Positions 3,098 to 36,510 of a stretch of 64,000 nucleotides of DNA are shown here, piece by piece (position 1 is the first letter of the stretch; each line of letters starts with the position of its first letter). The notes below the pieces were generated by a model. It was not told where the DNA came from. It did no database searches and was given only the letters and a program-made list of their open reading frames with translations. The DNA lies in NCBI GenBank assembly GCA_043817315.1, contig JBDRGY010000013.1:8663-72662 (forward strand). The letters are read 5' to 3'. This DNA is from Patescibacteria group bacterium. GTDB lineage: Bacteria > Patescibacteriota > Patescibacteriia > JBDRGY01. Both the position numbers and the translations under genes were made by a program.

Positions 3098-3586
3098 TTA
3101 CATTATAGCAGAAATTAGCTCTTTGATAACTTCCTTCTCATTTTTCCCTTCAGTATCAACAACTTGGCCTGCTTCAAACGTAGTGTTAATCCGGTACATC
3201 GCTTCAATACTGATCCGATTCATTGCATTCTTTTTCCTGGCCAGGTTCCTCTGCCAACAAGTTTCCAAAGACGCTTTCAAAGTGAAAATGAAAGGTTTGC
3301 CCGACAATTCTTTAACTAACTGATCGATTTGTTCTTGGTAATAAAAATTGCCATCAAAAACGACCGGCTTCCCCTGCTCCAAGTATTCAATAACTTTGGG
3401 CTTGATTATGGTTTGGACTTTTAAGAAATTGCCGACTGGAATATCTCCGTCTTTAATTTCTAAATTGGTATCTCGTAAAACTTGGTCAATATTAAAATGA
3501 ACTCCGTTTAACAGTTTGGCAACGGCTTGGGCAATAGTTGTTTTGCCTACTCCGGCTGGGCCGCGGATGATGATAAAATTAGTCAT
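3098..3586 (-). CDS. P-loop NTPase / small-molecule kinase-like protein
   Basis: Walker A GPAGVGKTT near the N-terminus and 162 aa length fit the AAA_33 / nucleotide-kinase-like fold. Confidence 0.5.
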   Translation of the reverse strand: MTNFIIIRGPAGVGKTTIAQAVAKLLNGVHFNIDQVLRDTNLEIKDGDIPVGNFLKVQTIIKPKVIEYLEQGKPVVFDGNFYYQEQIDQLVKELSGKPFIFTLKASLETCWQRNLARKKNAMNRISIEAMYRINTTFEAGQVVDTEGKNEKEVIKELISAIM

Positions 3587-7013: not shown

Positions 7014-8246
7014 CTAGATACTATCACCCAAACAATAACCGGTAGTCCAACACATTTGCAGATTATAACCGCCAGTGGGGCCGTCTAAGTCCAAGATCTC
7101 TCCGGCCAGATAAAGATTATCAATAATCTTGGATTGCATATTCTTAGGATCAACTTCTTTGAGATCCACTCCCCCGCTGGTAACGATAGCCCGATTGAAG
7201 CCAGCCAAGTTTTTAACCTGCAAAGTAAAATCTTTGATCAAATGGACTAATTTCTTTCTTTCGGCTTGGCTAATGGCATTAACCTTCTTATCCGGATCGA
7301 TCTGAGACAGTTTGATCATGACCGGAATCAACTTTTTAGGTAAGAGAGCGGCTAAACTGTTTCTGAATAATTTATTATTTAACAGGGCAAAGTCTCTTTG
7401 CAGGCGTTTATCCAAGGCGGGGAAATCCAGGGCCGGTTTGAAATCAAGGTGCAACTCTACTTTTCCTTTTTTCAGAGACTGGCCGACTGCTTTACTCATA
7501 TCAATAGCAATGGGACCACTTAAGCCATTATCGGTAAACAACGCTTCACCAAAAGAAGATAAGATCTTCTTGCCTTTTTGATAGGGACTGATAGTAACAT
7601 TTTTAAGGCTTAATCCTTCCAGTTCCTTAATCCACTTTTCCCGCAAGATAATGGGAACAATGGCCGGGACTAGTTCTGTAATTTTATGCCCCATTTTTTT
7701 AAGCCAGGCATAAGCGTCACCAGTCGAACCGGTCACTGGGTGCCCTTGGCCTCCGGTACAGATAGCATATTTGTCTGCTAAATACTTTTGTCCATCGCTG
7801 AGGACGATTTGGGTAATTTTATTATTGCATCTTTCTATCGATTTAACGGTAGCCTTGGTCTGGATGGTTACCTTATTTTCTTTTAAATAATTTGTTAAAG
7901 CTCCAATCACATCGGCTGACTGATTGCTCTGGGGAAAAACCCGATTGCCTCGCTCAATTTTGGTGGGAACTCCTCGTTGCTTGAGGAAATCCAGCATCTC
8001 TTGAACGCCAAATTTATTTAAGCCGGAAAAAAGAAAACGGCCGTTGCGTCCATATTTGGCAATTAACTTCCTGGTATCAAATTCAGCGTTGGTAATATTA
8101 CATCGTCCTTTGCCGGTAACTCCTAGTTTAGTTCCCAACTTAGCGTTTTTCTCCAACAATAATACGCGGGCGCCTTTGGCCCCGGCTCTGCCGGCAGCCA
8201 TCATCCCGGCCGGTCCTCCCCCGATTACTATTAAATCATAGATCAT
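7014..8246 (-). CDS. FAD-dependent oxidoreductase, HI0933/BaiN-like flavoprotein family
   Basis: N-terminal dinucleotide fold DLIVIGGGPAGMMAAGRAG, ...GKGRCNITN..., and C-terminal LAGEILDLDGPTGGYNLQ are typical of the HI0933 family. Confidence 0.7.
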   Translation of the reverse strand: MIYDLIVIGGGPAGMMAAGRAGAKGARVLLLEKNAKLGTKLGVTGKGRCNITNAEFDTRKLIAKYGRNGRFLFSGLNKFGVQEMLDFLKQRGVPTKIERGNRVFPQSNQSADVIGALTNYLKENKVTIQTKATVKSIERCNNKITQIVLSDGQKYLADKYAICTGGQGHPVTGSTGDAYAWLKKMGHKITELVPAIVPIILREKWIKELEGLSLKNVTISPYQKGKKILSSFGEALFTDNGLSGPIAIDMSKAVGQSLKKGKVELHLDFKPALDFPALDKRLQRDFALLNNKLFRNSLAALLPKKLIPVMIKLSQIDPDKKVNAISQAERKKLVHLIKDFTLQVKNLAGFNRAIVTSGGVDLKEVDPKNMQSKIIDNLYLAGEILDLDGPTGGYNLQMCWTTGYCLGDSI

Positions 8247-8333
8247 CTTAGTTTCTCCATATTCCCATTTATTTAGGCATTAGTCAAAATAAAAAAATCC
8301 TTGCTAAAAAACTTTAGCCAGGATTTGATAATG

Positions 8334-9851
8334 TTATAAAATCCCGAATACTTTGCGAAAATGAAACCCATAAATTGCAAAACCAATTACTGAAGAGAAG
8401 AGCTGGGGGTGCCTGAATAAAGACCAAAAGAACAGTTTCCAGAAGCCTCCCCTGGACCTATCTTTGATACCCAGAAACCAGATGGATTTAAATATGGCAC
8501 CGGAGAAACCATAATGTAAACGGATATAACGAAAATGAAAATGGGATGACCTCTCTGGTAATTTATTTTTTTCCTTCAAGAATCTCTTAACCCGTTTGTA
8601 ATAAGGCTTGGGAGAGTAAATCCCGCTGATAATTTTTTTATATCCCTGTACCAGGTTTTCATATTTGATTTTAGTAACAAAGTTGGTAGAAAAATCGGTG
8701 TTGTCACCCGTCATATCTTTCAATATCCTGCCTTCTTTGGTAAGACGCTGATAGAGTCTGGTACCCCGAGGGGCATTCAATAATCCGACCATGGCGGTTA
8801 CAATTCCACTTTTCTGGATGAAGTCAATTTGTCTTTGGAATATTGACGAATCATCATTGTCAAATCCCACGATGAATCCTCCGGTCACCTGCAAACCAAA
8901 CTGCTGGATTTTTTGGACTGAGGCGATCAAGTCACGATTCCTGTTTTGAATCTTGCCGCATTCTGCTAAGCTGGCCTCGTTGGGAGTTTCAATACCAACA
9001 AACACCCTGTTAAATCTGGCACGGGCCATCAGACGCATCAGCTCTTCATCATCAGCCAGATTAATTGAGGCTTCGGTGGTAAGAACAAAGGGATTTTTTC
9101 TTTTGGTCATCCAATCAATCATGGCCGGTAAGACATCCTTTTTTAGCTTGGGTTTATTCCCAATGAAATTATCATCAACCATAAATATTCCGCCTCTCCA
9201 GCCTCTTGAATACAGACTATTTAATTCAGTTATCATTTGATCTTTACTCTTGGTCCGTACTCCGCGTCCAAAAAGGGCAGTAATATTACAGAATTCACAG
9301 TTAAAAGGGCAGCCGCGGGAATATTGGAGATTCATCGATAAATATTTTCTCATCTTGATAAGTTCCCAGAGGGGAACCGGCGTTAATCCCAGGTCCGGAT
9401 ATTCCTTGGAGCCATAAATACGTTGAGGACAGCCGTTTTTCAAATCCTCCAAAAAGGGCGGCAGGGTAATCTCCGCTTCATTGAGTATTAGATGATCCAC
9501 ATAGGAAAAATCTTGATACTCGGTTGTAAAGAGGGGGCCACCAGCCACAACCTTGATACCCATTTTCTGACACTTCCTGATTACCTCTTTGGCTGAAGCT
9601 TTTTGAATAGACATGGCACTAATAAAAACCAGATCAGCCCCCATCAGGTCTTTATCCTTTAACTTGGAAACTTTCATATCAATCAGCTTTTTCTCCCACT
9701 CCTTAGGTAGCATGGCGGCTACTGTTAATAAGCCTAAAGGTGGATGAGAGGCCTTTTTGGAGATAAATTTTAAGGCATGCTTAAAACTCCAGAAGGTATC
9801 GGGATACTTCGGGTAAACAAGGACAACTTTGGTATTTGTTTTTCCCCTCAT
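8334..9851 (-). CDS. B12-binding domain radical SAM protein (with DUF4070-like C-terminus)
   Basis: CPFNCEFC is a CxxxCxxC radical SAM motif. There is an N-terminal B12-binding-like domain (VVLVYPKY...LGLLTVAAML). Confidence 0.75.
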   Translation of the reverse strand: MRGKTNTKVVLVYPKYPDTFWSFKHALKFISKKASHPPLGLLTVAAMLPKEWEKKLIDMKVSKLKDKDLMGADLVFISAMSIQKASAKEVIRKCQKMGIKVVAGGPLFTTEYQDFSYVDHLILNEAEITLPPFLEDLKNGCPQRIYGSKEYPDLGLTPVPLWELIKMRKYLSMNLQYSRGCPFNCEFCNITALFGRGVRTKSKDQMITELNSLYSRGWRGGIFMVDDNFIGNKPKLKKDVLPAMIDWMTKRKNPFVLTTEASINLADDEELMRLMARARFNRVFVGIETPNEASLAECGKIQNRNRDLIASVQKIQQFGLQVTGGFIVGFDNDDSSIFQRQIDFIQKSGIVTAMVGLLNAPRGTRLYQRLTKEGRILKDMTGDNTDFSTNFVTKIKYENLVQGYKKIISGIYSPKPYYKRVKRFLKEKNKLPERSSHFHFRYIRLHYGFSGAIFKSIWFLGIKDRSRGGFWKLFFWSLFRHPQLFSSVIGFAIYGFHFRKVFGIL

Positions 9852-9935
9852 ATATGAATTGCTCCGCCATAATGGCGGGATTCCTGAAGATTTTGTTTAA
9901 TTAACGGCTAATTCTATTGTAGCAGATAACAGAAA

Positions 9936-9960
9936 TAATTAAAAATCCCCAAGTATGGGG
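9936..9960 (-). terminator. intrinsic terminator downstream of the tRNA-Trp locus
   Basis: Minus-strand CCCCATACTTGGGG is followed by ATTTTTAATTATTT. Confidence 0.5.
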
Positions 9961-9994
9961 TGTATCCCAGCGAGAGACGCCACCGTTTCGGGTG

Positions 9995-10080
9995 GCAGGG
10001 TTGGAGGGAATCGAACCCCCGTATCAGGTTTTGGACCCCGTCGCTCGCGAGTGACGGGGTGGAGACCCACAACATTTACA
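9995..10080 (-). pseudogene. tRNA-Trp-derived degenerate partial copy (element A)
   Basis: Minus strand ...GGTCTCCACCCCGTCACTCGCGAGCGACGGGGTCCAAAACCTGATACGGGGGTTCGATTCCCTCCAACCCTGCCA carries tRNA-Trp-like anticodon-arm (TCCAAAACC), T-arm (GGGGGTTCGATTCCC) and CCCTGCCA 3' end. No acceptor-stem pairing or cloverleaf is possible, and the D region is replaced by a GC hairpin. Confidence 0.4.
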
Positions 10081-10089
10081 GAAAACTGA

Positions 10090-10165
10090 TGGCAGGGGCG
10101 CTAGGACTTGAACCCAGCCTTGAGGTTTTGGAGACCCCCGTGCTAGCCACTAACACTACGCCCCC
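10090..10165 (-). tRNA. tRNA-Trp (anticodon CCA), CCA 3' end encoded
   Basis: Minus strand GGGGCGTAGTGTTAGTGGCTAGCACGGGGGTCTCCAAAACCTCAAGGCTGGGTTCAAGTCCTAGCGCCCCTGCCA folds as a cloverleaf with anticodon loop CUCCAAA. Confidence 0.8.
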
Positions 10166-10169
10166 ATCA

Positions 10170-10442
10170 TCAGGTTTCTGTTTTTTTAATATTCAAGCTC
10201 TTTGCTATTCGTTTCTTAAGTGCCATATAAACCGATCCGCTTTTCTTTATTCTCTTTTCCCTTATTTTGGAATCTTCTCTGTTTCTATAGGATTCATAGT
10301 AAACTAACTGAACAGGTAGCTTATTCTTAGTTGTAAATACCTTCCCTTTATTATGATCTTTTAGTCTTTGTTTTAAATGATCCGTTCTACCAATATACAG
10401 TTTGCCGTCATTAGCGCTTTTTAATAGATACACATAATACAT
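10170..10442 (-). CDS. GIY-YIG nuclease family protein (UPF0213/YhbQ-like, single URI domain)
   Basis: MYYVYLLKSANDGKLYIGRTDHLKQRLKDHNKG...LVYYESY is a GIY-YIG motif. The protein is 90 aa with a basic tail. Confidence 0.7.
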   Translation of the reverse strand: MYYVYLLKSANDGKLYIGRTDHLKQRLKDHNKGKVFTTKNKLPVQLVYYESYRNREDSKIREKRIKKSGSVYMALKKRIAKSLNIKKTET

Positions 10443-10446
10443 TCAT

Positions 10447-10665
10447 GTGGGATTATTAATTAATCCCCGTCGTTCTCGGTTTTGGACCACGTCAGTCGCG
10501 GAACCCCGTCATCCGGGGATGACAGGGACTGACGTAGTGGAGACCTGCGTTCTACATTGCCAGCCAGAGGCTGGTCCGCCCCGGGCGGAAACTATCCCTA
10601 GGTCGCCTGCAGCGACCGGGATCCCGGCCCCGCGGACAGCGGGGACCAGGGACACCCCCAAAATA
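10447..10665 (-). repeat. GC-rich structured element B, degenerate tRNA-Trp-like copy related to element A
   Basis: About 65 percent GC with many nested hairpins. It shares the blocks AATGT.G, GGTCTCCAC, GACGGGGT, GGTCCAAAACC and ACGRGGG, in the same order, with element A and with the tRNA-Trp anticodon arm. Confidence 0.4.
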
Positions 10666-11754
10666 TTATCGGCTTTTCTTTTTACCTTTAATAAATTCTT
10701 CTGTCAACTGGTGGGCTTCTTCATCGGTATATTGAATAGCCGGTGATTTCATAAAGTAGGCAGAAGGACCGAATAAAGTGCCGGATATCTTTCTGTCCAG
10801 GGCCAATTTTATACAACGAATGGCATCAATAACCACCCCGGCTGAATTGGGTGAATCTTCTACCGACAAACGGCATTCTACATTCATAGGCACATCACCA
10901 AAATGTCGGCTCTCTATTCTTAAGTAACAAATCTTATTATCTTTCTGCCAAGGCACGTAATCGGAAGGTCCGACGTGGATATTCTCATCTTTAATGGACA
11001 ATCCCCTTCTTTCTATCTGGGATTTAACTGCATTGGTTTTTGAAATCTTCTTTGAAGATAGCCTGGCTCTTTCTAACATGTTTAGAAAATCCGTGTTGCC
11101 ACCAATATTCAATTGATAAGTACGGTCAATTGGCATCCCTCTGTCTAAAAATAAATTAGTCAAAGTACGGTGTAGAATTGTGGCTCCCACTTGAGACTTA
11201 ATATCATCCCCTATAATCGGCAGTTTCCTTTGCTTAAACCGACCTTGCCAGTATTTCTCTCGGGCGATAAATACCGGAATACAGTTTACAAAACCACAAC
11301 CGGCATCTAAGACCTGCTCTACATACCACTTAGTGGCATGTTCACTGCCGACTGGCAGATAATTAATGACAACATCGGTTTTGGTTTGCTTTAAAATTTT
11401 GACGATATCATCAGTAGGACCAGGTGCTTTTTTGATTATAACGTACTTGCCTAAACCATCATGAGTCATTCCTCGATGAACTTTAACGCCCAGCTTGGGA
11501 ACTGGGGAGAATTTCTTGGTGTTATTGGGCTTTACCCAAATGGCTTGGCTTAAATCTTTGCCAACTTTGTTGGCGTTGATGTCAAAAGCAGCAGTAAATT
11601 CAATATCCCGGATATGATAACCTCCCAGAGTGACATGCATTAAACCCGGTACCGTATCAGCAGCCTTGGCCTTACGATAGTATTGAACACCTTGAATTAA
11701 AGAAGAAGCACAATTACCCACACCAATTATACCTACTCGAATTTTCTTCTTCAT
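10666..11754 (-). CDS. myo-inositol-1-phosphate (inositol-3-phosphate) synthase, archaeal-type
   Basis: 362 aa. [19 protein letters not shown]-binding start and overall similarity to short-form MIPS. Confidence 0.75.
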
Positions 11755-11773
11755 ATATCCTCCTGATATATTA

Positions 11774-11929
11774 TTATTTGGTCTCTTTATGGGGAGTATG
11801 CTTCTGGCACCATTTACAGAATTTTTTCAATTCTAAACGATTGCGCAGAGTTTTCTTATTTTTCTTGGAAAAATAATTAACCCTTTTGCATTCGGTGCAT
11901 TCCATTTTGATCAGATTGTCCTGTGACAT
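11774..11929 (-). CDS. rpmG: 50S ribosomal protein L33
   Basis: [51 protein letters not shown] has the L33 Cys motifs and RLELKKF/HKE signature. The ORF-track N-terminal extension is rejected. Confidence 0.75.
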
Positions 11930-11984
11930 AGAAATATGTTTAATATTTTTTGGGTAACTCTGGAGCCAAGGAAGCCCCGGATCG

Positions 11985-12075
11985 CAGTCCGGGGGAACCC
12001 CCAACCTGCTGTTTATGCCGCCTTAGGCGGCACCCCGCCAGAGGCGGTAGCAAACATCGCCATAATTACTTACGA
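11985..12075 (-). pseudogene. partial degenerate copy of the tRNA-Thr(UGU) 3' half
   Basis: Minus strand ...CATAAACAGCAGGTTGGGGGTTC-CCCCGGACTGCGATCCGGGG-CTTCCTTGGCT. It has 20 nt identical to the tRNA-Thr anticodon-stem/variable/T-stem region, and the T-loop is replaced by a GC hairpin. Confidence 0.4.
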
Positions 12076-12085
12076 GGTGGCTCAA

Positions 12086-12157
12086 AGCCGAGGAAGGGAA
12101 TCGAACCCCCAACCTGCTGTTTACAAAACAGCTGCTCTACCATTGAGCTACCTCGGC
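12086..12157 (-). tRNA. tRNA-Thr (anticodon UGU)
   Basis: Minus strand GCCGAGGTAGCTCAATGGTAGAGCAGCTGTTTTGTAAACAGCAGGTTGGGGGTTCGATTCCCTTCCTCGGCT has a cloverleaf with anticodon loop UUUGUAA. Confidence 0.85.
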
Positions 12158-12174
12158 AAAACTTGGGGTGGTTG

Positions 12175-12260
12175 TGGTGGGCGGAGTAGGATTCGAACCT
12201 ACGAAGGCAAAAGCCATCTGATTTACAGTCAGACCCAGTTGACCACTTTGGTATCCGCCC
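12175..12260 (-). tRNA. tRNA-Tyr (anticodon GUA), long variable arm, CCA encoded
   Basis: Minus strand GGGCGGATACCAAAGTGGTCAACTGGGTCTGACTGTAAATCAGATGGCTTTTGCCTTCGTAGGTTCGAATCCTACTCCGCCCACCA. Confidence 0.85.
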
Positions 12261-12419
12261 ATATGTATTTTAAATAACCCTATTCATTTTTTTATGAATC
12301 TGATTTATCCCATAGCCCGCTAGACGCAGTAGCGTCTGAGGAGTGAGGGGCACTCATGCGGAGGTTGAAGCGGAAGAAATTTGATTACTGGAACGCAAGC
12401 CGAAGCATGAGATGAGCTG

Positions 12420-12485
12420 AGCCCAGAAGCGGACTCGAACCGCTGACCTACTCCTTACCATGGAGTTGCCTGCCCGCCAAGCGCC
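12420..12485 (-). pseudogene. partial degenerate copy of tRNA-Thr(GGU)
   Basis: gacctactccttaccatggagttgc is identical to the anticodon arm of the adjacent tRNA-Thr(GGU), but the D and T arms are altered and the acceptor cannot pair. Confidence 0.35.
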
Positions 12486-12488
12486 TGG

Positions 12489-12560
12489 AGCCGACGGTCG
12501 GACTTGAACCGACGACCTACTCCTTACCATGGAGTTGCTCTACCACTGAGCTACGTCGGC
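12489..12560 (-). tRNA. tRNA-Thr (anticodon GGU)
   Basis: Minus strand GCCGACGTAGCTCAGTGGTAGAGCAACTCCATGGTAAGGAGTAGGTCGTCGGTTCAAGTCCGACCGTCGGCT. Confidence 0.85.
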
Positions 12561-12638
12561 ACTAGGCGACTGGCAGGCGGGCTCTACCTCAGCCAGGGGC
12601 TGACCCGCCTTTGGCGGGAGCTGAGGTATCTGGGCGTA

Positions 12639-13454
12639 TTATTTTTTGATTTTTAAATCCTTTTCCAATACTTTCACCCTTTCCTCAAATTCAGTTATCT
12701 TCTGGTTGTCGGGATTGACTTCTTTCAATTTATCAAGGCACTCTAAGGCTACCACTTTATCTTTAGTTTCCAAACAGGTGTCTAACATGCAGTCCAATAT
12801 TTTTGGATTGTTCGGTTCAATCTCCAGGGCCTTGGCAAAATTCTTGATGGCCAGTCGTGTATTGTCCTGTCTCAAGGCCAGGAGGCCAAGGTCATGATAC
12901 ACCAAGGCATTGTTGGGATCAATTCGCAGCAGATGTGAAAAAGTCTCGTGAGCAAAGTCAAACTCTTTCATTTCCATATACAGTTCTCCCAGGCGTTCAA
13001 AAGCTTCCAGGTTGTCACTGTCCAGTGATATGATTTCAATATACTTCTTTTCAGCCTCTTTTACCTTCTCTGCTTTCTCTAAATCGTCCGCCTCTTGTAG
13101 TAATTGGCTTACTTTTGTTTTGACCTTGGCTCGATCAGTGCTCTTTTGGGGTGCTTGAATTTTCTGAGTATAATTTTTTTCTAGGGCGATCACCTTACGG
13201 TAGGAACGACGGAATGACTCCCGTATCTTCTGGGTTACTGGTACTGCATATTTAACAACTTGTTTGAAAATATTATCAAGTTTTCTGGTCAACCTTTTTT
13301 CCATTAAGTCTTTTTTAACTTCCTTCTGCAGCTGTTTGGGTACGGCTTGAGTGTTTATTGCAGACAAGGCAGGAAACTTACGCACCACAATAATCACAAT
13401 AATCCCCATCCCCATGATAATGACGCCTAACAATATGTAGTCTAATAGAGTCAT
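12639..13454 (-). CDS. TPR-repeat protein with N-terminal TM anchor
   Basis: TM segment MTLLDYILLGVIIMGMGIIVIIVV, and a C-terminal half with TPR-like repeats (AHETFSHLLRIDPNNALVYHDLGLLAL..AIKNFAKALEIEPNNPKIL). Confidence 0.55.
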   Translation of the reverse strand: MTLLDYILLGVIIMGMGIIVIIVVRKFPALSAINTQAVPKQLQKEVKKDLMEKRLTRKLDNIFKQVVKYAVPVTQKIRESFRRSYRKVIALEKNYTQKIQAPQKSTDRAKVKTKVSQLLQEADDLEKAEKVKEAEKKYIEIISLDSDNLEAFERLGELYMEMKEFDFAHETFSHLLRIDPNNALVYHDLGLLALRQDNTRLAIKNFAKALEIEPNNPKILDCMLDTCLETKDKVVALECLDKLKEVNPDNQKITEFEERVKVLEKDLKIKK

Positions 13455-14281
13455 TGTTTTTTAGATTGAAGTTTTAGACACTGTTCACTACCTGGAATTT
13501 CTACTTCGATATAGGAATTATCCTCAATCCTGACGTCAACAGAATGTTTCAAAATATTCCAAGCTACTACCTCTCCTTTGCCTTGTTTAGTCTTAATAAT
13601 ACTGCCCAACTGCGGCAAATCCTTGCTACAGGTTTTGTATAGTTCTTCTTCGTAGGCCAGGCAACACATTAAACGACCACAAGATCCGGAAATTCTTTCA
13701 CTGCCCCGGTGGGCTACTTGCTGGGCCCGGGCCAAATCAGAAGAAACATTACCCAAATTATCCAAGAACTTACGGCAACACATAGGACGACCGCAGACTC
13801 CAATATCCCCTAGCCTTTTAGTTTCGTCTCGAATTCCAATCTGTTGCAAACGGATTGATTTTTGAAAGATATGCGAAAGATCTTTTACCAAATTACGAAA
13901 GTCCACACGAGAATCAGCCGTAAAGGTAAATACTATTCTGCCGCCATCGAAAGAAAATTCGCAATCTACAAGATTCATCGGCAAATTATGCTTCTTGATC
14001 AGGTGACGGCACTTATCCAGAACCTCTTCTTTCTGTTCGTTGTGCTGCTCCAGCTTGGCCAAATCTTCAGTTGTTACTTTACGAACCACCGAATTGACAG
14101 GCTCTGGTTGGTCATCACCGTCTTTCTTGTCTGTCTCAACGGCTAGCTGGGTTACCTCCCCCAGTTCCAAACCGGAGTCAGCTTTTATTATTACCCGATC
14201 ACCCGTTTTCAAATCAAACCGGCCACCGTCATATAACTGCGGCTGATCCCAAAAGTGCATTCTGACAAAAGCTTTTGACAT
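13451..14281 (-). CDS. PSP1 C-terminal domain protein (RicT/YaaT family)
   Basis: CGRPMCCRKF and CGRLMCCLAYEEELY are the Cys motifs characteristic of YaaT/RicT PSP1 proteins. Confidence 0.65.
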   Translation of the reverse strand: MSKAFVRMHFWDQPQLYDGGRFDLKTGDRVIIKADSGLELGEVTQLAVETDKKDGDDQPEPVNSVVRKVTTEDLAKLEQHNEQKEEVLDKCRHLIKKHNLPMNLVDCEFSFDGGRIVFTFTADSRVDFRNLVKDLSHIFQKSIRLQQIGIRDETKRLGDIGVCGRPMCCRKFLDNLGNVSSDLARAQQVAHRGSERISGSCGRLMCCLAYEEELYKTCSKDLPQLGSIIKTKQGKGEVVAWNILKHSVDVRIEDNSYIEVEIPGSEQCLKLQSKKQ

Positions 14282-18949: not shown

Positions 18950-19025
18950 AAACTTTGCTAACTTCCAATAACGTCCTTTTACATTTTGAGGGTGTAAACA
19001 GAAGCTCAATCGAGAGGAGGCCTGC

Positions 19026-20204
19026 GTGAAAAAGAGGGATGTGGAACAGTATCCTGTTGGCAGCCCGGAGCGCGTAACCGCCGATTTTCTGAGGCGAGCC
19101 AGTCTCGGCAAACGACCAGCCCTTTCTTTCGCCGATGAGCACAATCCGATGGAAGCGGCCCGATTGGCCACTACAGTGCTGTACTGTGGCAACCCTGGTT
19201 TCATCCCCCTGCTCCTTGGAGACATGAAGGGTCTCAACCGCTTCATCCGGGCCAGACACTTGGCTGGCTACCGTTTTCGCAGAAGGCTGCCGGAATTCAT
19301 CATCCTGGGGCGCTTTTGGACTGACACCTGCGGCAACTTCGGTCGCATCCAGCAGACCGACATCCCAGAAGAAGTGATCGTCCAGCTACCCAGCTTGATG
19401 ACTCGGGAAGACTACTCTAGGGTAGCTAAGAGATGCCGGGCACAAGCCGACAAGGATCCGGAGCACACCTACTGGAGCGTTCCTATAGAGAGCAGCGTTC
19501 CTCCAGCTGGCCTGCTCTGTCCGGTTTGCGGCAACGCCTGGAACCTCAGCAACTGCCATGATACCGTGGTCACTCACCGAACCGAATCCATCCCTTTGTC
19601 TGACTTCGTTGGTTGGAGACTGGGTCAGGTCACCGCACATTTCAATCGCACTCCAGATGCAGTGATGCGCATGCAGTCAGATATCATGATCCGCAATGAC
19701 CGTCACATTGACCTGACACCCCATCCCGACTACGATACCCTAGTTCTCAACGAACGAGGCTGGGTGTCCGCCAAGGACGGGATCACGGATTACTACCAGG
19801 TTGAAGAGGGCGATGAAGCTTTCTTTAACATCTGGCAGTTCCGCCATCTGGCCTGTCAACGAGCCTGGCTTCAGGCCAAGGAACGAGAATACTTCCGCAA
19901 GATGTTCAGCGACGCCGGGATACCAGTCAGACGAATGCAGACCATTCCCAACGAGTACGACCCCAGCTATCCTCATTATGCTCCTTGGTTTATGGTCTAC
20001 ACCCCGATTGGCACCTTCAAGATTGGGTGGCGCAAACGGGTGATCAACATCGACTGGACCAAGGCTGAGGGTCAGTACGATGGCCTGTTTGCTGACCAGG
20101 ATGTTACCCAAGGTGCCAACCATGTTCACGCCTGGGGGACCGAGAAGGGCACTGAATACCTGAGTCGTATTGCCGAAGCCTCTCAGGCTGTGCTAGGATC
20201 CTAA
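19026..20204 (+). CDS. hypothetical protein (GC-rich island)
   Basis: GTG start with upstream GAGAGGAGG. 392 aa with a CPVCGNAWNLSNCHD Cys/His cluster and no recognisable family. Confidence 0.45.
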   Translation: MKKRDVEQYPVGSPERVTADFLRRASLGKRPALSFADEHNPMEAARLATTVLYCGNPGFIPLLLGDMKGLNRFIRARHLAGYRFRRRLPEFIILGRFWTDTCGNFGRIQQTDIPEEVIVQLPSLMTREDYSRVAKRCRAQADKDPEHTYWSVPIESSVPPAGLLCPVCGNAWNLSNCHDTVVTHRTESIPLSDFVGWRLGQVTAHFNRTPDAVMRMQSDIMIRNDRHIDLTPHPDYDTLVLNERGWVSAKDGITDYYQVEEGDEAFFNIWQFRHLACQRAWLQAKEREYFRKMFSDAGIPVRRMQTIPNEYDPSYPHYAPWFMVYTPIGTFKIGWRKRVINIDWTKAEGQYDGLFADQDVTQGANHVHAWGTEKGTEYLSRIAEASQAVLGS

Positions 20205-20345
20205 CACTCTCATTAATCACGCGTCCCCGTCCGCAAGGACTCAGGGGCGCTTTTTTTATATTAAAAAAGGTCCTGCACCTACGCTTGCGCGCTTGGTGCA
20301 GGACCTGTCGTTCGAACTCACTCCGTCCCAGAGGACGAGAGGGAG

Positions 20346-21302
20346 TTACTGCTGTGGAACCCTCGAACGATTCCGGGTGTCAAGCCAGGCCGGCTGACCC
20401 CAGTTCTGAGACGCGCTTGCATCCCAGACCATGGTAGCCTTGCCTGACTCAACCGCTTTGAGCCAGACCTCGCGCCGGATCTCCAGCTCCTTGAGCTGGA
20501 CCTCCTTCTTGATCTCGAGATCACGCATCTGGAGGTAGGCTGGATTGGCCGCGACAGCTGCCCCGATCTGATTGATCCGAGCAACTTCCTGGTCAGCGGC
20601 CAACCTTCTGATCTCCGCCTCCCAGATCTCCTGGGGTGCCTTAACGTTGGAGAGCGACATATCGAGCAACTCGATAGGAATGTCGGCCTCAGCGTAGACC
20701 TTCTTGGCCATCGCCCCCAACTCGAGCTCGATCTTCGGACGATTCCTCTGAATGTCTCGATAGTCGACGTATTCCCGGAAAACCTCCCTGGTACCCGCTC
20801 GCAGCTTCATGGCCGCGAAGTGCTCATGAATCATCTCGGTGGTGATTATGAACACTCTGGGGTCATCCGGAACTCGCGGATCCATCGATGACGGAATCGG
20901 GGTGATCGAGTTGATGATCAGGTTGATGTATTCCGGCGTAACCTTGACAATCTCTCGGTAGTAAACGTCGGCCGTTACCTGCGCCACTTCACCGGTCTTC
21001 GGATGTGGGGCACAATCGATCATGTGGTTGACCCGATCGGGCATAAGTTCGGCCGGCAGGTAGCGATCCTTGATCTGGACTGCCGTCACCTCGACCTGGA
21101 CTACGTAGCTGCCCTTGCCACCAGCGCCGAGCTTGCCGATGTCGACCTGACCGGGTTCCAGAATCTGGCCAGTCGGACCCTCAGGGGTGACCTCCATAGC
21201 CACCCAACCCTGCTGAGTGGTAACGTAGTTCGAGCATCCGGCCATGAACATCACGGCCAGCGCGACGACGATCAGAAACAGCTTGTTGAGATTCCTATCC
21301 AT
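20346..21302 (-). CDS. lipoprotein with SPFH/band-7-like domain (tentative)
   Basis: Lipobox FMAGC. The central region has loose SPFH-like blocks (VTADVYYREIV..., ...IELLDMSLSNVKAPQEIWEAEIRRLAADQE) and a coiled-coil C-terminus. Confidence 0.4.
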   Translation of the reverse strand: MDRNLNKLFLIVVALAVMFMAGCSNYVTTQQGWVAMEVTPEGPTGQILEPGQVDIGKLGAGGKGSYVVQVEVTAVQIKDRYLPAELMPDRVNHMIDCAPHPKTGEVAQVTADVYYREIVKVTPEYINLIINSITPIPSSMDPRVPDDPRVFIITTEMIHEHFAAMKLRAGTREVFREYVDYRDIQRNRPKIELELGAMAKKVYAEADIPIELLDMSLSNVKAPQEIWEAEIRRLAADQEVARINQIGAAVAANPAYLQMRDLEIKKEVQLKELEIRREVWLKAVESGKATMVWDASASQNWGQPAWLDTRNRSRVPQQ

Positions 21303-21354
21303 GGGGATAGTTCTCCTTTCCTGACAGGCGAAGATTATCCGATTGGATCATCCT

Positions 21355-21675
21355 CTAGTTGTCACCGATCCGGCGATCCAGAGCTTCTTTCTGCTGCTCG
21401 ATGCCAGTTCGGTCCTGCCCCCTTCGCTCCGACAGATTGACGCTGAGCGAGTTGAACAGGTTGAGCCCCAGCACCAGGGCGATGATCATGATCACCGTCC
21501 AGCGGATGCTGTGAATCCACTTCCTGCTCGCAATCTCGCTACGAGGCATGTTACGCAGCACCAGTCTCGTGACGTACAGAACGATGATGACAGCGATGAT
21601 AGCCGCCACGAACCAGCCTTTGTACATGGGCCAGACTGCGACCCAGCGCTCGGCCAGACTCATCGAGTTAAGCAT
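21355..21675 (-). CDS. small 2-TM membrane protein (possible NfeD-like partner of the SPFH lipoprotein)
   Basis: AGGAGG lies 6 nt before the internal Met (MLNSMSLAERW...). The gene is directly upstream of and co-oriented with the SPFH-like gene. Confidence 0.35.
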   Translation of the reverse strand: MLNSMSLAERWVAVWPMYKGWFVAAIIAVIIVLYVTRLVLRNMPRSEIASRKWIHSIRWTVIMIIALVLGLNLFNSLSVNLSERRGQDRTGIEQQKEALDRRIGDN

Positions 21676-21943
21676 TCCTACCTCCTTCATTCCGGAGAAA
21701 CGTAACAATACTCCACCACTAATCCATTTCACCTCCTGGCCAACCAACGGCCGGTTACTCAAACTGGTTTTATCCCTTCGGATTTTAAAAGTACTATCTA
21801 GCCAATACTTCAGCTAAACAGAATATACTAACATACCTTTCCCGATTTGTCAACCCTGAAAAAAAAGAAAAGGCGCAGTTTTTTGTTTTAATAAATAATT
21901 CCCGCCTAAGGCGGGCAGGTATCTGATTTGACGGAAATGAAGA

Positions 21944-21973
21944 GGCGCCGTTTCGCTTCCGCGAAACGGCGCC
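21944..21973. terminator. strong bidirectional intrinsic terminator
   Basis: GGCGCCGTTTCGC-TTCC-GCGAAACGGCGCC is a perfect 13-bp stem flanked by A/T runs. Confidence 0.5.
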
Positions 21974-22013
21974 TTCGTTGTGAACTCATTCCATCCAGGT
22001 AGGACAGAGCAAG

Positions 22014-35092: not shown

Positions 35093-35227
35093 TCTTTTGA
35101 TACTAAGCTCTTTAACCAAGGAAGGTCATATGGCTAAGCCCAGGACTGGCCTGATCCAGTGGTAATCCACAAGATCGGTGCCCCTATTCTTTGTGCTTTT
35201 CTGTTGCTGATGCAGCTGATTAGCTTT

Positions 35228-35300
35228 CTTAAGAGCACCTCTCCCACACCATAATCTGAGTGTGGGATTTTTTTATCCTGCCTCCCACATGGTGCAGGAT
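35228..35300 (+). terminator. two tandem intrinsic terminators after thrS
   Basis: cccacaccataatctgagtgtggg+T8 and cctgcctcccacatggtgcagg+T5. Confidence 0.5.
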
Positions 35301-35370
35301 TTTTGACAAAATTATTTCATTTTGTTAAGTTTATTGACCGAACTAATCGCTCTATACACGGGGGGCTATT

Positions 35371-35601: not shown

Positions 35602-35617
35602 CCAAAGGAGAAACGCT

Positions 35618-35806: not shown

Positions 35807-35859
35807 CTCCTGGAGCAGGTATCTATTCCTGCTCTTTTTTATTGGGGAAAAGCTTTATA

Positions 35860-35888: not shown

Positions 35889-35891
35889 CTA

Positions 35892-36205: not shown

Positions 36206-36211
36206 CAGACC

Positions 36212-36460: not shown

Positions 36461-36475
36461 TGGGGAAAACTCCCC

Positions 36476-36504: not shown

Positions 36505-36510
36505 CATAAC

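What the first reader, a model, noticed from the sequence alone, without database searches (positions are those of the whole stretch)
9936..10665. tRNA-Trp locus with two degenerate tRNA-Trp-derived elements flanking a GIY-YIG nuclease gene
An intact tRNA-Trp (10090-10165) is followed within 10 nt by element A (9995-10080). Element A keeps a tRNA-Trp-like anticodon arm, T-arm and CCCTGCCA 3' end but cannot form an acceptor stem, and it carries a GC hairpin insert. The 219-nt GC-rich element B upstream of the GIY-YIG gene shares the same ordered blocks (GGTCTCCAC, GACGGGGT, GGTCCAAAACC). The arrangement is B, then GIY-YIG, then tRNA-Trp, then A. This resembles footprints of a tRNA-targeting integrative or homing element, or a tRNA-derived structured RNA family, and the GIY-YIG protein is a candidate for the nuclease that mobilises it.
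Basis: partly seen in the sequence, partly recalled or inferred. Interest (0 to 1): 0.7.

Follow-up and report, generated by a model that had tools for sequence, protein, structure and literature searches.

The report
Selfish nuclease cassette beside tRNA-Trp
A tiny nuclease gene sits between a working tryptophan-tRNA gene and two broken copies of that gene that carry small palindromic insertions; the same layout recurs across many ultra-small (Patescibacteria) bacteria and looks like a selfish DNA cassette that lives in tRNA and other stable-RNA genes.

Summary
All features lie on the minus strand, in this order: element B (10443-10659), a 90-aa GIY-YIG gene (10170-10442), an intact tRNA-Trp (10090-10165), element A (9993-10089), then a terminator.

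A and B are tRNA-Trp pseudogenes. Each has a 24-nt GC palindrome, flanked by a TCCA duplication, inserted at anticodon-loop position 36/37. B carries further nested GC hairpins.

Relatives show the same layout.
- All 23 GIY-YIG genes of the tRNA-Trp-linked set have such a palindrome nearby.
- Of 80 homologous loci, 32 abut a tRNA and 16 more lie in or beside 16S/23S rRNA, RNase P RNA or tmRNA genes.
- Nuclease clades follow the identity of the neighbouring tRNA.
- The protein is under purifying selection.
- The palindrome stays conserved although synonymous sites are saturated, and its arms covary.
- One filled versus empty site for the palindrome was found.

Best reading: this is a resident copy of a homing-endonuclease-like, stable-RNA-gene-targeting GIY-YIG cassette. 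A and B are disabled earlier tRNA-Trp alleles.

Cleavage specificity and actual mobility are inferred, not shown. No cassette-free allele was found. I found no published description of this tRNA-linked architecture. I rate it a new variant of a known kind.

The parts
10443..10659 (-). Element B: a tRNA-Trp pseudogene running from position 1 to a T-arm remnant, ending directly at the GIY-YIG ATG and interrupted by GC-rich palindromic insertions
   Evidence: Homologous to L001 878-985 (z=11.2; alignment). Segment coordinates.
10653..10659 (-). B: acceptor 5' strand GGGGGTG
   Evidence: Aligns with GGGGGAG of the L001 pseudo and intact tRNA-Trp, and is identical to GGGGGTG of the L166 pseudo copy.
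10595..10652 (-). B: 58-nt GC-rich structured insertion (TCCCTGG-hairpin-CCGGGATCCCGG-hairpin-CCTAGGGA). It is absent from the L001 pseudo copy.
   Evidence: The same scaffold with different hairpin sequences occurs in a pseudo-tRNA-Pro next to a GIY-YIG gene in L020.
10560..10589 (-). B: two adjacent 15-nt GC hairpins (TCCGCCCGGGGCGGA and CCAGCCTCTGGCTGG) inserted in the D loop between TAGTT and CAATG
   Evidence: L001 reads TAGTT|CAATG without them.
10538..10559 (-). B: D-loop to anticodon 5' part, CAATGTAGAACGCAGGTCTCCA
10487..10537 (-). B: palindrome inserted after CTCCA of the anticodon loop. The outer 24-nt-type palindrome (CTACGTCAGT..ACTGACGTGG) is itself interrupted in its centre by a second 24-nt palindrome at 10504-10527.
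10478..10486 (-). B: TCCAAAACC, the duplicated TCCA plus the 3' strand of the anticodon arm
10449..10471 (-). B: T-arm remnant GACGGGG-ATTAATTAATAA-TCCC with an AT-rich replacement loop, 6 nt before the ATG
   Evidence: Conserved junction in L001 (GACGGGGAATATAATTAATCCC) and L166 (GACGGGGGTTAATGATTAATCCC).
10170..10442 (-). GIY-YIG nuclease gene: 90 aa, single catalytic domain
   Evidence: Pfam PF01541 E=2e-15. Y/YIG/R26/H30/E62 motifs are invariant in 41 homologues. pN 0.10-0.28 against pS 0.66-1.0. Closest solved structures are UPF0213 proteins 1zg2 and 1ywl.
10090..10165 (-). Intact tRNA-Trp(CCA), called 'type 2' here. It starts 4 nt after the nuclease stop codon.
   Evidence: Most similar to the intact tRNA-Trp of L003.
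10061..10089 (-). Element A, 5' part: degenerate D-loop and anticodon-stem remnant (TCAGTTTTCTGTAAATGTTGTGGGTCTCC)
   Evidence: Alignment to the L001 tRNA-Trp. The same TCAGTT junction follows the type-2 tRNA in L003.
10035..10060 (-). Element A: 26-nt palindrome ACCCCGTCACTCGCGAGCGACGGGGT (24-nt core 10036-10059) at anticodon-loop position 36/37. The flanking TCCA copies are at 10060-10063 and 10032-10035.
   Evidence: Covariation of the family.
9993..10035 (-). Element A, 3' part: anticodon 3' strand, variable loop, T arm, acceptor 3' strand and CCA of a 'type 1' tRNA-Trp
   Evidence: R1 hit of 29.9 bits, E=5e-7. Beyond the anticodon arm it is 88% identical to the intact tRNA-Trp of L001 and L036, against 68% to the adjacent intact gene.
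9940..9996 (-). Hairpin GCCACC..GGTGGC overlapping the CCA of A, followed by an intrinsic terminator (CCCCATACTTGGGG plus a T run, 9947-9960)

Best explanation
The locus holds a resident copy of a Patescibacteria-wide family of miniature selfish cassettes. Each is built around a single-domain GIY-YIG nuclease of about 85-90 aa and lives in or next to stable-RNA genes. In the tRNA-Trp-specific clade the layout is: pseudo-tRNA-Trp, nuclease gene, working tRNA-Trp, second pseudo-tRNA-Trp. A and B are former tRNA-Trp alleles, each disabled by a 24-nt GC palindrome inserted with a TCCA duplication at anticodon-loop position 36/37. B has since collected further nested palindromic insertions.

Proposed mechanism. 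The nuclease breaks tRNA-Trp DNA in or near the universally conserved anticodon arm GGTCTCCAAAACC. Repair against a cassette-bearing copy uses the tRNA-derived stretches on both sides as homology arms. This copies in the nuclease gene together with a working tRNA-Trp, and the resident gene is left behind as a disrupted copy. The palindrome is the clade's cognate inverted repeat. It is the counterpart of the terminal inverted repeats that flank the ORF in sister clades, and it sits at, and destroys, the presumed target. The nuclease gene and the tRNA are probably transcribed together and end at the terminator after A.

Shown: the anatomy; homology of A and B to tRNA-Trp; recurrence of the architecture; target-specific nuclease clades; the palindrome as a discrete insertion with a 4-nt duplication (one filled versus empty site); purifying selection on the protein; conservation and arm covariation of the palindrome.

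Inferred: nuclease activity and specificity; homing by break repair; the role of the palindrome; co-transcription.
For: Anatomy in this window.
- A and B are tRNA-Trp derivatives.
- Close relatives have a pseudo-tRNA-Trp directly before the orthologous ATG and an intact tRNA-Trp directly after the stop codon: L001 at 81% protein identity, L166 at 73%, L167 at 71%.

Association with stable-RNA genes in 80 homologous loci from GTDB species genomes.
- 29 have a same-strand tRNA starting between -6 and +200 nt from the stop codon, and 3 more have a tRNA within about 100 nt upstream. Eighteen of these are Trp; the rest are Ala, Val, Ile, Phe, Pro, Ser, Glu and Cys.
- 16 more lie inside 16S or 23S rRNA, in or beside RNase P RNA, or beside tmRNA genes.
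- Upstream of the ATG there is a partial copy of the 5' part of the same downstream tRNA (z up to 28; sequences).

Clade structure.
- tRNA-Trp-linked nucleases form one clade, and Ala/Val/Ile-linked nucleases form another.

The palindrome.
- 34 copies of the family were found in 515 kb of loci, and 28 of them lie within 160 nt of the nuclease ORF.
- All 23 loci of the Trp-linked set have at least one (for L166 the contig ends inside it).
- Filled versus empty site, at the 3' end of a pseudo-tRNA-Thr upstream of rpmG: the window reads GGCTCCA|GA and L166 reads GGCTCA|GA, but L001 reads GGCTCCA[24-nt palindrome + TCCA]GA.
- Tandem double insertions each regenerate the 4-nt repeat (L003, L043).
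- 7 of 10 arm pairs show compensatory changes and 95% of cells are paired; 0 of 500 shuffles reach the covariation score.
- Synonymous sites of the adjacent gene are saturated (pS 0.66-1.0) while pN is 0.10-0.28. The palindrome is therefore not a neutral relic.

Two tRNA-Trp alleles side by side.
- The disrupted 3' copies differ from the adjacent intact tRNA (58-76% identity) but match intact tRNA-Trp genes of other genomes (88-94%).

Sister clades.
- Of 71 loci with enough flank, 36 have clear (score 12 or more) 12-30 bp terminal inverted repeats around the ORF, typically ACCCCRCACC... / ...GGTGYGGGGT. One repeat end (CCCCGTCAC in L017 and L026) equals the palindrome arm of A.
Against: - No cassette-free allele of the tRNA-Trp locus was found, so mobility of the cassette is not demonstrated. 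The metagenome scan with the neighbouring MIPS gene gave no syntenic loci.
- Subclades of the nuclease tree group loci with the same or related candidate-phylum labels, and synonymous sites are saturated. The linkage may therefore be old and mostly vertical.
- The intact tRNA-Trp keeps the presumed target GGTCTCCAAAACC, and nothing explains why it would escape cleavage.
- The protein lacks the DNA-binding domain that gives I-TevI and Seg enzymes their specificity.
- Strong conservation and covariation of the palindrome point to a function beyond a scar or an immunity insert.
- In this clade the ORF is not bracketed by long-range inverted repeats.
- Pseudo-tRNA-Thr copies with GC hairpins occur in the window without a GIY-YIG gene.
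- No relatives were found in viral contigs.
Confidence: 0.55

Rival explanations
1. Transposon-like element. The GIY-YIG protein acts as a transposase-like nuclease on its cognate inverted repeats. The ORF bounded by inverted repeats (about 285-340 bp) is the autonomous form. The 24-nt palindromes are its non-autonomous, ORF-less derivatives. Both insert into loops of hairpin-forming DNA (anticodon loop, rRNA and RNase P helices, loops of other palindromes), often with a 3-5 bp duplication. A and B are spare tRNA-Trp copies that served as landing pads.
For: - Clear (score 12 or more) terminal inverted repeats with a shared end motif tightly flank the ORF in 36 of 71 loci with enough flank.
- Direct repeats of 3 nt or more flank 16 of 36 of these elements (TTGA, TTTA, TCAAA, CCA and others).
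- The palindrome has a clean 4-nt duplication (TCCA or CCTG), one filled versus empty site, tandem re-insertions and a nested insertion inside another palindrome in B.
- Relatives lie inside rRNA and RNase P RNA genes without any duplication of the host gene.
- Perfect arm symmetry with covariation fits movement through, or copying from, a folded-back strand.
Against: - Flanking duplications are inconsistent: none in 10 of 36 elements, and 8-10 nt or up to 74 nt at tRNA loci.
- The palindromes are not dispersed. They cluster within about 160 nt of the nuclease gene, and only A and B carry them in this 64-kb window.
- In the Trp clade the ORF lies outside the palindrome.
- No bacterial transposon with a GIY-YIG transposase is on record in the literature searched.
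Confidence: 0.25
2. Functional cis-acting element. The unit GGTCTCC-palindrome-CCAAAACC is a selected operator or RNA hairpin, for example an autoregulatory binding site resembling the nuclease's target, as I-TevI has (my recollection), or a 5'-UTR or processing signal. It would control the nuclease gene and/or the co-transcribed tRNA-Trp. The rest of A and B would be decaying carrier sequence.
For: - The unit stays about 90% identical across lineages whose synonymous sites are saturated.
- Its arms covary.
- In class I loci one copy lies 36-94 nt upstream of the ATG.
- In 5 relatives the stop codon of the ORF is the U8-A9-G10 of the tRNA, so RNase P processing and nuclease expression are coupled.
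Against: - Copies also lie downstream of the tRNA, as A does, at tRNA 3' ends (L043, L059) and at a pseudo-tRNA-Thr end 0.5 kb away (L001). An operator or 5'-UTR role does not fit those positions.
- Copy number and position vary between close relatives.
- This reading does not explain the duplicated tRNA parts.
Confidence: 0.12
3. Coincidence. Ordinary tandem duplication and decay of tRNA genes, plus unrelated GC-hairpin repeats, next to a housekeeping GIY-YIG repair gene that merely happens to lie there.
For: - Degenerate tRNA-Thr copies with GC hairpins occur in the same cluster without a nuclease gene.
- The gene is conserved and under purifying selection.
Against: - 48 of 80 homologous loci are in or beside a stable-RNA gene. 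From an assumed roughly 45 tRNA genes per Mb (my own figure, not a tool result), under 1% would be expected to have a tRNA within 200 nt.
- Nuclease clades track the identity of the tRNA.
- The palindrome family is confined to the neighbourhood of the Trp-linked clade.
Confidence: 0.04
4. A disrupted but functional tRNA gene. B and A would be the two halves of one split or intron-containing tRNA-Trp, joined by splicing, with the nuclease gene and the second tRNA inside the intervening sequence.
For: - B supplies a 5' part and A a 3' part of the same 'type 1' allele.
- B's GGGGGTG could pair with A's CAACCCT in 6 of 7 positions (sequence).
- Group I introns do occur in Patescibacteria tRNA genes (PMC13011429).
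Against: - No group I or group II intron signal anywhere in the region, even at E up to 10.
- B and A overlap: both contain the anticodon arm and T-arm material.
- B's D arm is broken by insertions.
- Relatives have only one of the two parts (L001 and L006).
- An intact tRNA-Trp is present.
- B's 5' strand pairs equally well with the intact gene's 3' strand.
Confidence: 0.01

Closest known systems
Free-standing GIY-YIG homing endonucleases of T-even phages, especially T4 SegB in the tRNA gene cluster (PMC2330249)
   Same: A GIY-YIG nuclease gene with no intron, lodged among tRNA genes. It is thought to spread by breaking the cassette-less allele, with repair co-converting the flanking tRNA sequence. 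It targets highly conserved genes.
   Different: Seg enzymes are about 200 aa or more and have a DNA-binding domain (from my knowledge). This protein is 90 aa with the catalytic domain only. The setting is a bacterial chromosome, not a phage. It comes with duplicated, disrupted tRNA copies and a cognate 24-nt palindrome. Cleavage has not been tested.
Non-intron GIY-YIG insertion sequences in rRNA genes of CPR bacteria (PMC11270868, which also cites earlier work identifying LAGLIDADG and GIY-YIG families in CPR rRNA insertions)
   Same: Same protein family and same phylum. Relatives retrieved here sit inside 16S and 23S rRNA genes with no intron signature.
   Different: [quoted passage not shown] That paper does not mention tRNA, inverted repeats or palindromes (0 text matches) and reports no tRNA-specific clades or RNase P / tmRNA contexts. 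Here the cassette lies beside a tRNA, not inside a tolerated rRNA helix.
Collaborative homing: the free-standing endonuclease F-CphI together with an ORF-less intron in cyanophage psbA (recalled from memory, not checked)
   Same: A free-standing nuclease gene lies next to a short insertion that interrupts the presumed target sequence.
   Different: The insertion here is a 24-nt palindrome that cannot splice, so the interrupted tRNA is dead and a separate intact copy is needed. That intact copy still carries the target.
tRNA-targeting integrative elements (tyrosine-integrase islands and prophages)
   Same: Partial tRNA copies flank the inserted DNA, and an intact tRNA gene is regenerated.
   Different: No integrase: the five neighbouring ORFs scanned (7014-14281) are MIPS, radical SAM, an HI0933-like oxidoreductase, a TPR protein and PSP1, and rpmG lies between them. 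The insert is about 0.3 kb. The duplicated parts are mostly 5' portions of variable length (10-74 nt), not a fixed 3' att core.
REP/RAYT, IS200/IS605-derived palindromic elements and bacterial MITEs
   Same: Short GC-rich palindromes linked to one nuclease gene, inserted next to a fixed tetranucleotide, with nested and tandem copies.
   Different: The linked enzyme is GIY-YIG, not an HUH tyrosine transposase. The palindromes are local to the nuclease gene rather than dispersed. Whether an HUH transposase is encoded elsewhere in the genome was not tested.
UPF0213 stand-alone GIY-YIG proteins (PDB 1zg2 BH0048, 1ywl EF2693)
   Same: Closest solved relatives: single-domain proteins of about 100 aa.
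   Different: The match is weak (E about 1e-3). In the searched literature no function and no link to RNA genes is described for them.

Membership tests
GIY-YIG nuclease superfamily (Pfam PF01541) | Profile match above the curated cut-off | tested here: met
   57.3 bits against a cut-off of 22.6, E=2e-15, residues 1-68.
GIY-YIG nuclease superfamily (Pfam PF01541) | Conserved catalytic motifs (N-terminal Y..Y, YIG, Arg, His, Glu) | tested here: met
   Y3/Y5, Y16-I17-G18, R26, H30 and R61-E62 are invariant or nearly invariant in 41 homologues. Assignment of catalytic roles is by analogy with I-TevI, from my knowledge.
Free-standing homing endonuclease (Seg-like) | ORF not inside a self-splicing intron or intein | tested here: met
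   No group I or II intron hit in 9800-12700 at E up to 10.
Free-standing homing endonuclease (Seg-like) | Separate DNA-binding domain conferring long-site specificity | tested here: not met
   The protein is 90 aa and consists of the catalytic domain only.
Free-standing homing endonuclease (Seg-like) | Lineage-specific association with one conserved target gene | tested here: met
   Trp-linked and Ala/Val/Ile-linked nucleases form separate clades.
Free-standing homing endonuclease (Seg-like) | Presence/absence polymorphism of the gene at the same site in close relatives | tested here: inconclusive
   No empty allele was retrieved. The position of the ORF relative to the tRNA does differ between relatives (L003, L043 and L050 have it downstream).
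Free-standing homing endonuclease (Seg-like) | Site-specific double-strand cleavage of the cassette-less allele | not testable with these tools
   Needs biochemistry.
Non-intron GIY-YIG insertion sequences of CPR stable-RNA genes | GIY-YIG ORF in an insertion without intron similarity, within a stable-RNA gene of Patescibacteria | tested here: inconclusive
   Met by relatives: 16S in L015, L028 and L033; 23S in L041, L044 and L052; RNase P RNA in L078. The window copy lies beside a tRNA and inside a pseudo-tRNA array, not within a working RNA gene.
Insertion sequence / DNA transposon | Terminal inverted repeats bracketing the ORF | tested here: not met
   The best inverted repeat around the window ORF is 7 nt. 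The feature is met in 36 of 71 relatives with enough flank at score 12 or more.
Insertion sequence / DNA transposon | Target-site duplication of fixed length | tested here: inconclusive
   For the 24-nt palindrome a 4-nt repeat (TCCA or CCTG) is consistent. For ORF elements the flanking repeats range from 0 to 9 nt.
Functional tRNA | Complete cloverleaf with acceptor stem | tested here: not met
   A lacks the acceptor 5' strand and D arm and has 28 extra nt in the anticodon loop. B lacks the acceptor 3' strand and has four or more insertions. Rfam gives no tRNA hit for either.
Intron-containing or split tRNA gene | Self-splicing intron core, or two non-overlapping halves | tested here: not met
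   No intron model hit. A and B overlap in the anticodon arm and T-arm region.
Integrase-mediated tRNA-targeting island | Adjacent tyrosine or serine recombinase gene | tested here: not met
   None of the five neighbouring ORFs scanned (7014-14281) matches a recombinase family.
REP/RAYT or IS200/IS605 palindromic elements | HUH (Y1) transposase encoded in the genome | not tested
   Only the neighbouring ORFs were scanned against Pfam. The rest of the window and the rest of the genome were not.

The most novel reading that the evidence does not exclude
The small GIY-YIG genes bounded by inverted repeats (about 300 bp in all) and the 24-nt palindromes would be the autonomous and non-autonomous forms of a previously unrecognised class of prokaryotic mobile element. 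Its single-domain GIY-YIG nuclease would act on extruded hairpins or cruciforms and insert the element into loops of hairpin-forming DNA. That would explain why the elements accumulate in tRNA, rRNA, RNase P RNA and tmRNA genes and inside each other. The tRNA-Trp version would carry a replacement tRNA, so the host cannot easily lose it.
Probability: 0.25. Interest if true: 0.85.

Novelty: new variant of a known kind. Interest (0 to 1): 0.66.

Why it matters
Small GIY-YIG genes are very common in Patescibacteria and are usually annotated only as 'GIY-YIG nuclease family protein'. This locus, read together with 80 related loci, shows they are not scattered at random. About 60% lie in or beside stable-RNA genes, and nuclease clades are specific for the neighbouring tRNA. 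They come with cognate inverted repeats or palindromes, and they leave behind disabled tRNA copies.

Practical and biological consequences:
- It gives a concrete, testable candidate for a minimal homing or transposition system: a 90-aa enzyme and a 24-nt site.
- It explains the pseudo-tRNA and GC-hairpin clutter that confuses tRNA annotation in these genomes.
- It extends the known rRNA-insertion phenomenon of CPR bacteria to tRNA, RNase P RNA and tmRNA genes.
- A nuclease this small with a defined palindromic or tRNA-gene target could also be of practical interest.

Tried and rejected
- Rfam on the whole window and, at E up to 10, on 9800-12700. Only tRNAs were found; nothing for A, B or the GC hairpins, and no intron, T-box or other family.
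- Exact-sequence look-up of the window protein and of P0001. Neither is on record.
- A 41-sequence alignment was too diverse for the search for related loci. It was redone with 13 sequences.
- Metagenome scan with the neighbouring MIPS protein, hoping for syntenic relatives and an empty site. It returned 80 loci, none with GIY-YIG or tRNA-Trp; an rpmG check failed because the query was mistranslated. MIPS is 70-80% identical in unrelated contexts and was probably acquired horizontally. The single metagenome scan is therefore spent.
- Viral contigs: no relatives.
- Considered and dropped:
  - Archaeal-type bulge-helix-bulge intron or split tRNA. The context is bacterial (bL33, EF-Ts), and the halves overlap.
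  - Group I intron with a homing endonuclease gene. There is no ribozyme.
  - Integrase-type att duplication. There is no integrase, and the duplications are of 5' parts.
  - Palindrome as P-nucleotide-like repair scar of the flanking sequence. It is unrelated to the flanks, has constant size and is conserved.
  - Assembly artefact. The same architecture appears in more than 20 independent assemblies.
- B5'/A3' acceptor pairing as proof that they are halves of one gene. Rejected as uninformative, because B's 5' strand pairs equally well with the intact gene's 3' strand.
- Literature searches found no description of the tRNA-linked architecture. The library lacks most subscription journals, so this absence is not conclusive.
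Full report
**What is there.** All relevant features are on the minus strand. Reading 5' to 3' the order is:
- tRNA-Thr(GGT) 12560-12489, followed by a degenerate copy of itself;
- tRNA-Tyr and tRNA-Thr(TGT);
- a GC-rich element derived from tRNA-Thr(TGT);
- rpmG (bL33, 11930-11774);
- a myo-inositol-1-phosphate synthase gene (MIPS, 11754-10666);
- element B (10659-10443);
- a 90-aa GIY-YIG gene (10442-10170);
- tRNA-Trp(CCA) (10165-10090);
- element A (10089-9993);
- a hairpin and an intrinsic terminator (9960-9947);
- a B12-binding radical-SAM gene.

These assignments rest. The protein is 100% identical to an NCBI entry from a 'Patescibacteria group bacterium' MAG.

**Checking the observation.**
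GGTCTCCAC is found only in A and B, and GGTCCAAAACC only in A and B.
- Rfam does not recognise A or B even at E up to 10.
It hits A at 9993-10076 with 29.9 bits, E=5e-7.
- Once the 28 inserted bases are skipped, A aligns almost base for base from the anticodon stem to the CCA end with the intact tRNA-Trp of relative L001 (z=10.1 against dinucleotide shuffles). It aligns clearly less well with the intact tRNA-Trp 10 nt away (z=5.9).
- B scores only weakly against a tRNA-Trp (z=3.4). It is unmistakably homologous to the pseudo-tRNA-Trp that precedes the orthologous nuclease gene in L001 (z=11.2, 0 of 500 shuffles).

**Anatomy of B and A.**
- L001 reads GGGGGAGTAGTTCAATGGTAGAATGCGGGTCTCCA[CCCCGTCGCTCGCGAGCGACAGGG]TCCAAAACC..GACGGGG-AT-rich loop-TCCC, followed by the ATG. 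This is a tRNA-Trp copy up to the T arm, with a 24-nt palindrome in the anticodon loop.
- B is the same thing with extra insertions:
  - a 58-nt structured GC element after the acceptor strand (10595-10652);
  - two 15-nt GC hairpins in the D loop (10560-10589);
  - a second 24-nt palindrome nested in the centre of the first (10504-10527 within 10487-10537).
- A third relative, L166, has only about 40 nt at this place: the acceptor and D start fused to the same T-arm remnant.
- The B-equivalent is therefore about 40, 108 and 217 nt in three lineages that share the junction with the ATG. It evolves by insertion and deletion and is not a conserved structured RNA.
- A consists of a degenerate D-loop and anticodon-stem remnant, the 26-nt palindrome ACCCCGTCACTCGCGAGCGACGGGGT (10035-10060) flanked by TCCA on both sides, and then an intact-looking variable loop, T arm, acceptor 3' strand and CCA.

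**Relatives.**
- A search with the protein found about 100 homologues, nearly all unnamed or labelled only 'GIY-YIG nuclease family protein'.
- Contigs carrying the closest ones show the same neighbourhood: rpmG, pseudo-tRNA, nuclease gene, tRNA-Trp (L001; L166 with MIPS intact; L003-L005).
- L167 has the nuclease gene, tRNA-Trp and a palindrome-disrupted copy in a different upstream context.
- A scan of one genome per GTDB species found at least 544 relatives, of which I kept the 80 best loci.
- In 29 of these a tRNA on the same strand starts between -6 and +200 nt from the stop codon. In 3 more a tRNA ends within about 100 nt upstream. Eighteen are tRNA-Trp; the others are Ala, Val, Ile, Phe, Pro, Ser, Glu and Cys.
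- Sixteen further ORFs lie inside 16S rRNA (L015, L028, L033) or 23S rRNA (L041, L044, L052), in or at the edge of RNase P RNA (L024, L030, L031, L051, L053, L058, L078), or about 130-150 nt after tmRNA (L066, L076, L082).
- In total about 60% of loci are in or beside a stable-RNA gene. From an assumed roughly 45 tRNA genes per Mb (my own figure), I would expect under 1% to have a tRNA within 200 nt.

**Recurrent architecture.**
- Upstream of the ATG there is typically a partial copy of the 5' part of the very tRNA that follows the ORF. It starts at tRNA position 1 and ends at a variable position: 10-11 nt in Ala/Val/Ile loci, and 36 to 74 nt in Trp, Cys and Glu loci. Alignment z-scores reach 28.
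- The covariance model finds such pseudo-tRNA-Trp copies (17-37 bits) next to the nuclease gene in at least 12 of 20 Trp loci.
- In Trp loci the pseudo-copy carries the palindrome in one of two frames:
  - GGTCTCC[ACCCCGYCNNTCGCGANNGRCGGGGT]CCAAAACC, in the window, L001, L003, L006-L008, L010, L011, L046, L047 and L167;
  - GGTCTCCAA[CCCCGCCNNTCGCGANNGGCGGGG]CGATTCC, in L014, L036, L038, L042, L050, L062, L073 and L079.
- A second disrupted copy often follows the intact tRNA, as A does here (L006, L007, L008, L062, L166, L167).
- All 23 loci of the Trp-linked set have at least one palindrome of the family within about 330 nt of the ORF (the L166 contig ends inside one).
- Of 34 family members in 515 kb of loci, 28 lie within 160 nt of the ORF.
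- In a neighbour-joining tree the Trp-linked nucleases form one clade with the two frames as sister groups. The Ala/Val/Ile-linked ones form another clade.

**The palindrome is a discrete, conserved insertion.**
- At the orthologous 3' end of a pseudo-tRNA-Thr upstream of rpmG, the window reads GGCTCCA|GAG and L166 reads GGCTCA|GAA. L001 reads GGCTCCA[CCCCATCGTTCGCGAACGACAGAG TCCA]GAA. This is a filled versus empty site with a 4-nt duplication.
- At tRNA-Trp 3' ends the same kind of palindrome sits between CCTG repeats (L043, L059). Tandem copies each regenerate the repeat (L003, L043).
- Across 26 distinct versions, 95% of arm positions pair and 7 of 10 pairs show changes on both sides. The covariation score is 0.459 against 0.161 in shuffles (0 of 500 reach it), and sliding the partner by one to three columns destroys the signal.
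- Between the window and its relatives the nuclease gene has pS of 0.66-1.0 (saturated) and pN of 0.10-0.28. The protein is therefore under purifying selection. A neutral 24-nt scar would have decayed, yet the palindrome and its GGTCTCC / CCAAAACC frame are about 90% conserved.
- The palindrome is thus either functional or continually regenerated. Covariation points to intrastrand pairing (hairpin or cruciform, in DNA or RNA) or to fold-back copying, rather than to a duplex site read by a symmetric dimer.

**Two tRNA-Trp alleles.**
- Beyond the anticodon arm, A is 68% identical to the adjacent intact gene but 88% identical to the intact tRNA-Trp of L001 and L036.
- The disrupted copy in L006 is 76% identical to its neighbour but 94% identical to the intact gene of L003. 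L007 and L008 behave likewise.
- The window's intact gene ('type 2') and its flanks (TGATGAT upstream, TCAGTT downstream) match L003.
- These loci therefore hold two divergent tRNA-Trp alleles side by side, with one or the other disabled in different lineages. This is what replacement of a resident gene by an incoming one would leave.

**Sister clades.**
- Of 71 loci with enough flank, 36 have clear (score 12 or more) 12-30 bp terminal inverted repeats tightly bracketing the ORF, giving whole units of about 285-340 bp. The typical ends are ACCCCRCACC... / ...GGTGYGGGGT.
- The end CCCCGTCAC in L017 and L026 equals the palindrome arm of A. The Trp-clade palindrome therefore looks like a collapsed pair of such repeats.
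- Flanking direct repeats are inconsistent: 16 of 36 have 3 nt or more, and 10 have none. Classical transposition is not established.
- In rRNA and RNase P RNA genes the element lies inside the gene with no duplication. At tRNA genes, which cannot tolerate an insertion, it lies beside an intact copy with a partial duplicate.

**How it most likely works.** The best-supported account is a homing-endonuclease-like selfish cassette specialised on tRNA-Trp.
- The nuclease breaks tRNA-Trp DNA in or near the conserved anticodon arm.
- Repair against a cassette-bearing copy uses the tRNA-derived sequences on both sides as the only homology that is conserved between genomes.
- The nuclease gene and a working tRNA-Trp are copied in, and the resident allele remains as a palindrome-disrupted relic.
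- I give this 0.55.
- Its weak points are these: no empty allele was found; the intact tRNA still carries the presumed target; the protein has no DNA-binding domain; and the linkage may be ancient and vertical.
- The main rival (0.25) is a true transposon-like system in which the nuclease acts on its inverted repeats or palindromes and inserts them into hairpin loops.
- A cis-regulatory role of the palindrome unit (0.12) could coexist with either account.
- Coincidence and a split or intron-containing tRNA are effectively excluded.

**Comparison with what is known.**
- The closest experimentally characterised analogue is T4 SegB, a free-standing GIY-YIG homing endonuclease in a tRNA gene cluster (PMC2330249).
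- The closest described relatives are the non-intron GIY-YIG insertions in CPR rRNA genes. These were reported as sparse and of unclear mobility (PMC11270868).
- Work on Patescibacteria tRNA introns reports group I introns in tRNA-Asn, Asp and Thr, with HNH enzymes in tRNA-Asn introns. It does not mention GIY-YIG genes, tRNA-Trp or palindromes (PMC13011429).
- Six literature searches found no description of the tRNA-linked architecture, the pseudo-tRNA copies, the palindrome family or the RNase P / tmRNA contexts. The library is incomplete, so this is absence of evidence only.
- I rate the finding a new variant of a known kind.

Noticed in passing
window 12419-12490 (-): A degenerate second tRNA-Thr(GGT) directly follows, and overlaps by 5 nt, the intact tRNA-Thr(GGT). 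It is 92.5% identical over the anticodon and T arms. ARAGORN calls it a tRNA, but Rfam gives only 25 bits for positions 10-63. It is probably a pseudogene, and no GIY-YIG gene lies next to it.
   Followed up: partly
window about 11950-12085 (-): A GC-rich element between tRNA-Thr(TGT) and rpmG repeats 21 nt of that tRNA exactly (TAAACAGCAGGTTGGGGGTTC). It carries several CCGCC-NNN-GGCGG-type hairpins and ends in GGCTCCA. Homologous but differently decorated elements occupy the same position in L001 and L166.
   Followed up: partly
window 12571-12610 (-): A mini-helix, AGGCGGG..CCCGCCTGCCA, upstream of tRNA-Thr(GGT) scores 14 bits (E about 0.009) with the tRNA-Trp model, as an acceptor stem plus GCCA. 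A similar leader sequence precedes the tRNA-Thr in L003.
   Followed up: no
window 9864-9878, 10575-10589, 12016-12047, 12604-12618, 21901-21915: Small hairpins of the form CCGCC-N3-GGCGG. Five of the six in the window lie in the tRNA / pseudo-tRNA region.
   Followed up: no
window 10595-10652 (-) and L020 about 3320-3380: A 58-nt insertion in B has the scaffold TCCCTRG-hairpin-CCGGGATCCCGG-hairpin-CCTAGGGA. The same scaffold, with different hairpin sequences, recurs in the D loop of a pseudo-tRNA-Pro beside a GIY-YIG gene in an unrelated MAG. It may be a second small mobile or structured element.
   Followed up: partly
L001 691-880; window 10666-11754: The MIPS gene between rpmG and B is intact in the window and in L166. 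In L001 it is reduced to N- and C-terminal remnants. Its closest metagenomic relatives (70-80% identity) lie in unrelated contexts, which suggests horizontal acquisition.
   Followed up: partly
L007, L011, L014, L046, L057 (end of ORF / start of tRNA): The stop codon TAG of the nuclease ORF is formed by U8-A9-G10 of the downstream tRNA-Trp. RNase P cleavage at the tRNA 5' end would therefore cut the last codons and the stop codon off the mRNA. This is a possible built-in limit on nuclease expression.
   Followed up: no
L016, L018, L035, L077 (right end of element): Inverted-repeat-bounded GIY-YIG elements are flanked by TTGA(C) on both sides. The downstream copy reads as a sigma-70-like -35 box (TTGACA) with a plausible -10 box 17 nt further on.
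   Followed up: no
L024, L030, L031, L051, L053, L058, L078; L066, L076, L082: GIY-YIG relatives lie inside or at the edge of RNase P RNA genes, and about 130-150 nt downstream of tmRNA genes. I did not find these contexts described in the literature searched.
   Followed up: partly
window 35100-38050: A stretch of about 2.9 kb with 50-58% GC (the genome is about 41%) lies between thrS and a miaB-like gene. It has almost no long ORFs (one of 203 aa) and no Rfam hit. It remains unexplained.
   Followed up: partly
window 19000-22600, 42600-43200, 47600-48400, 59800-61400: Further GC-rich islands (52-61% GC). The first contains ORFs of 225-351 aa on both strands. None was examined.
   Followed up: no
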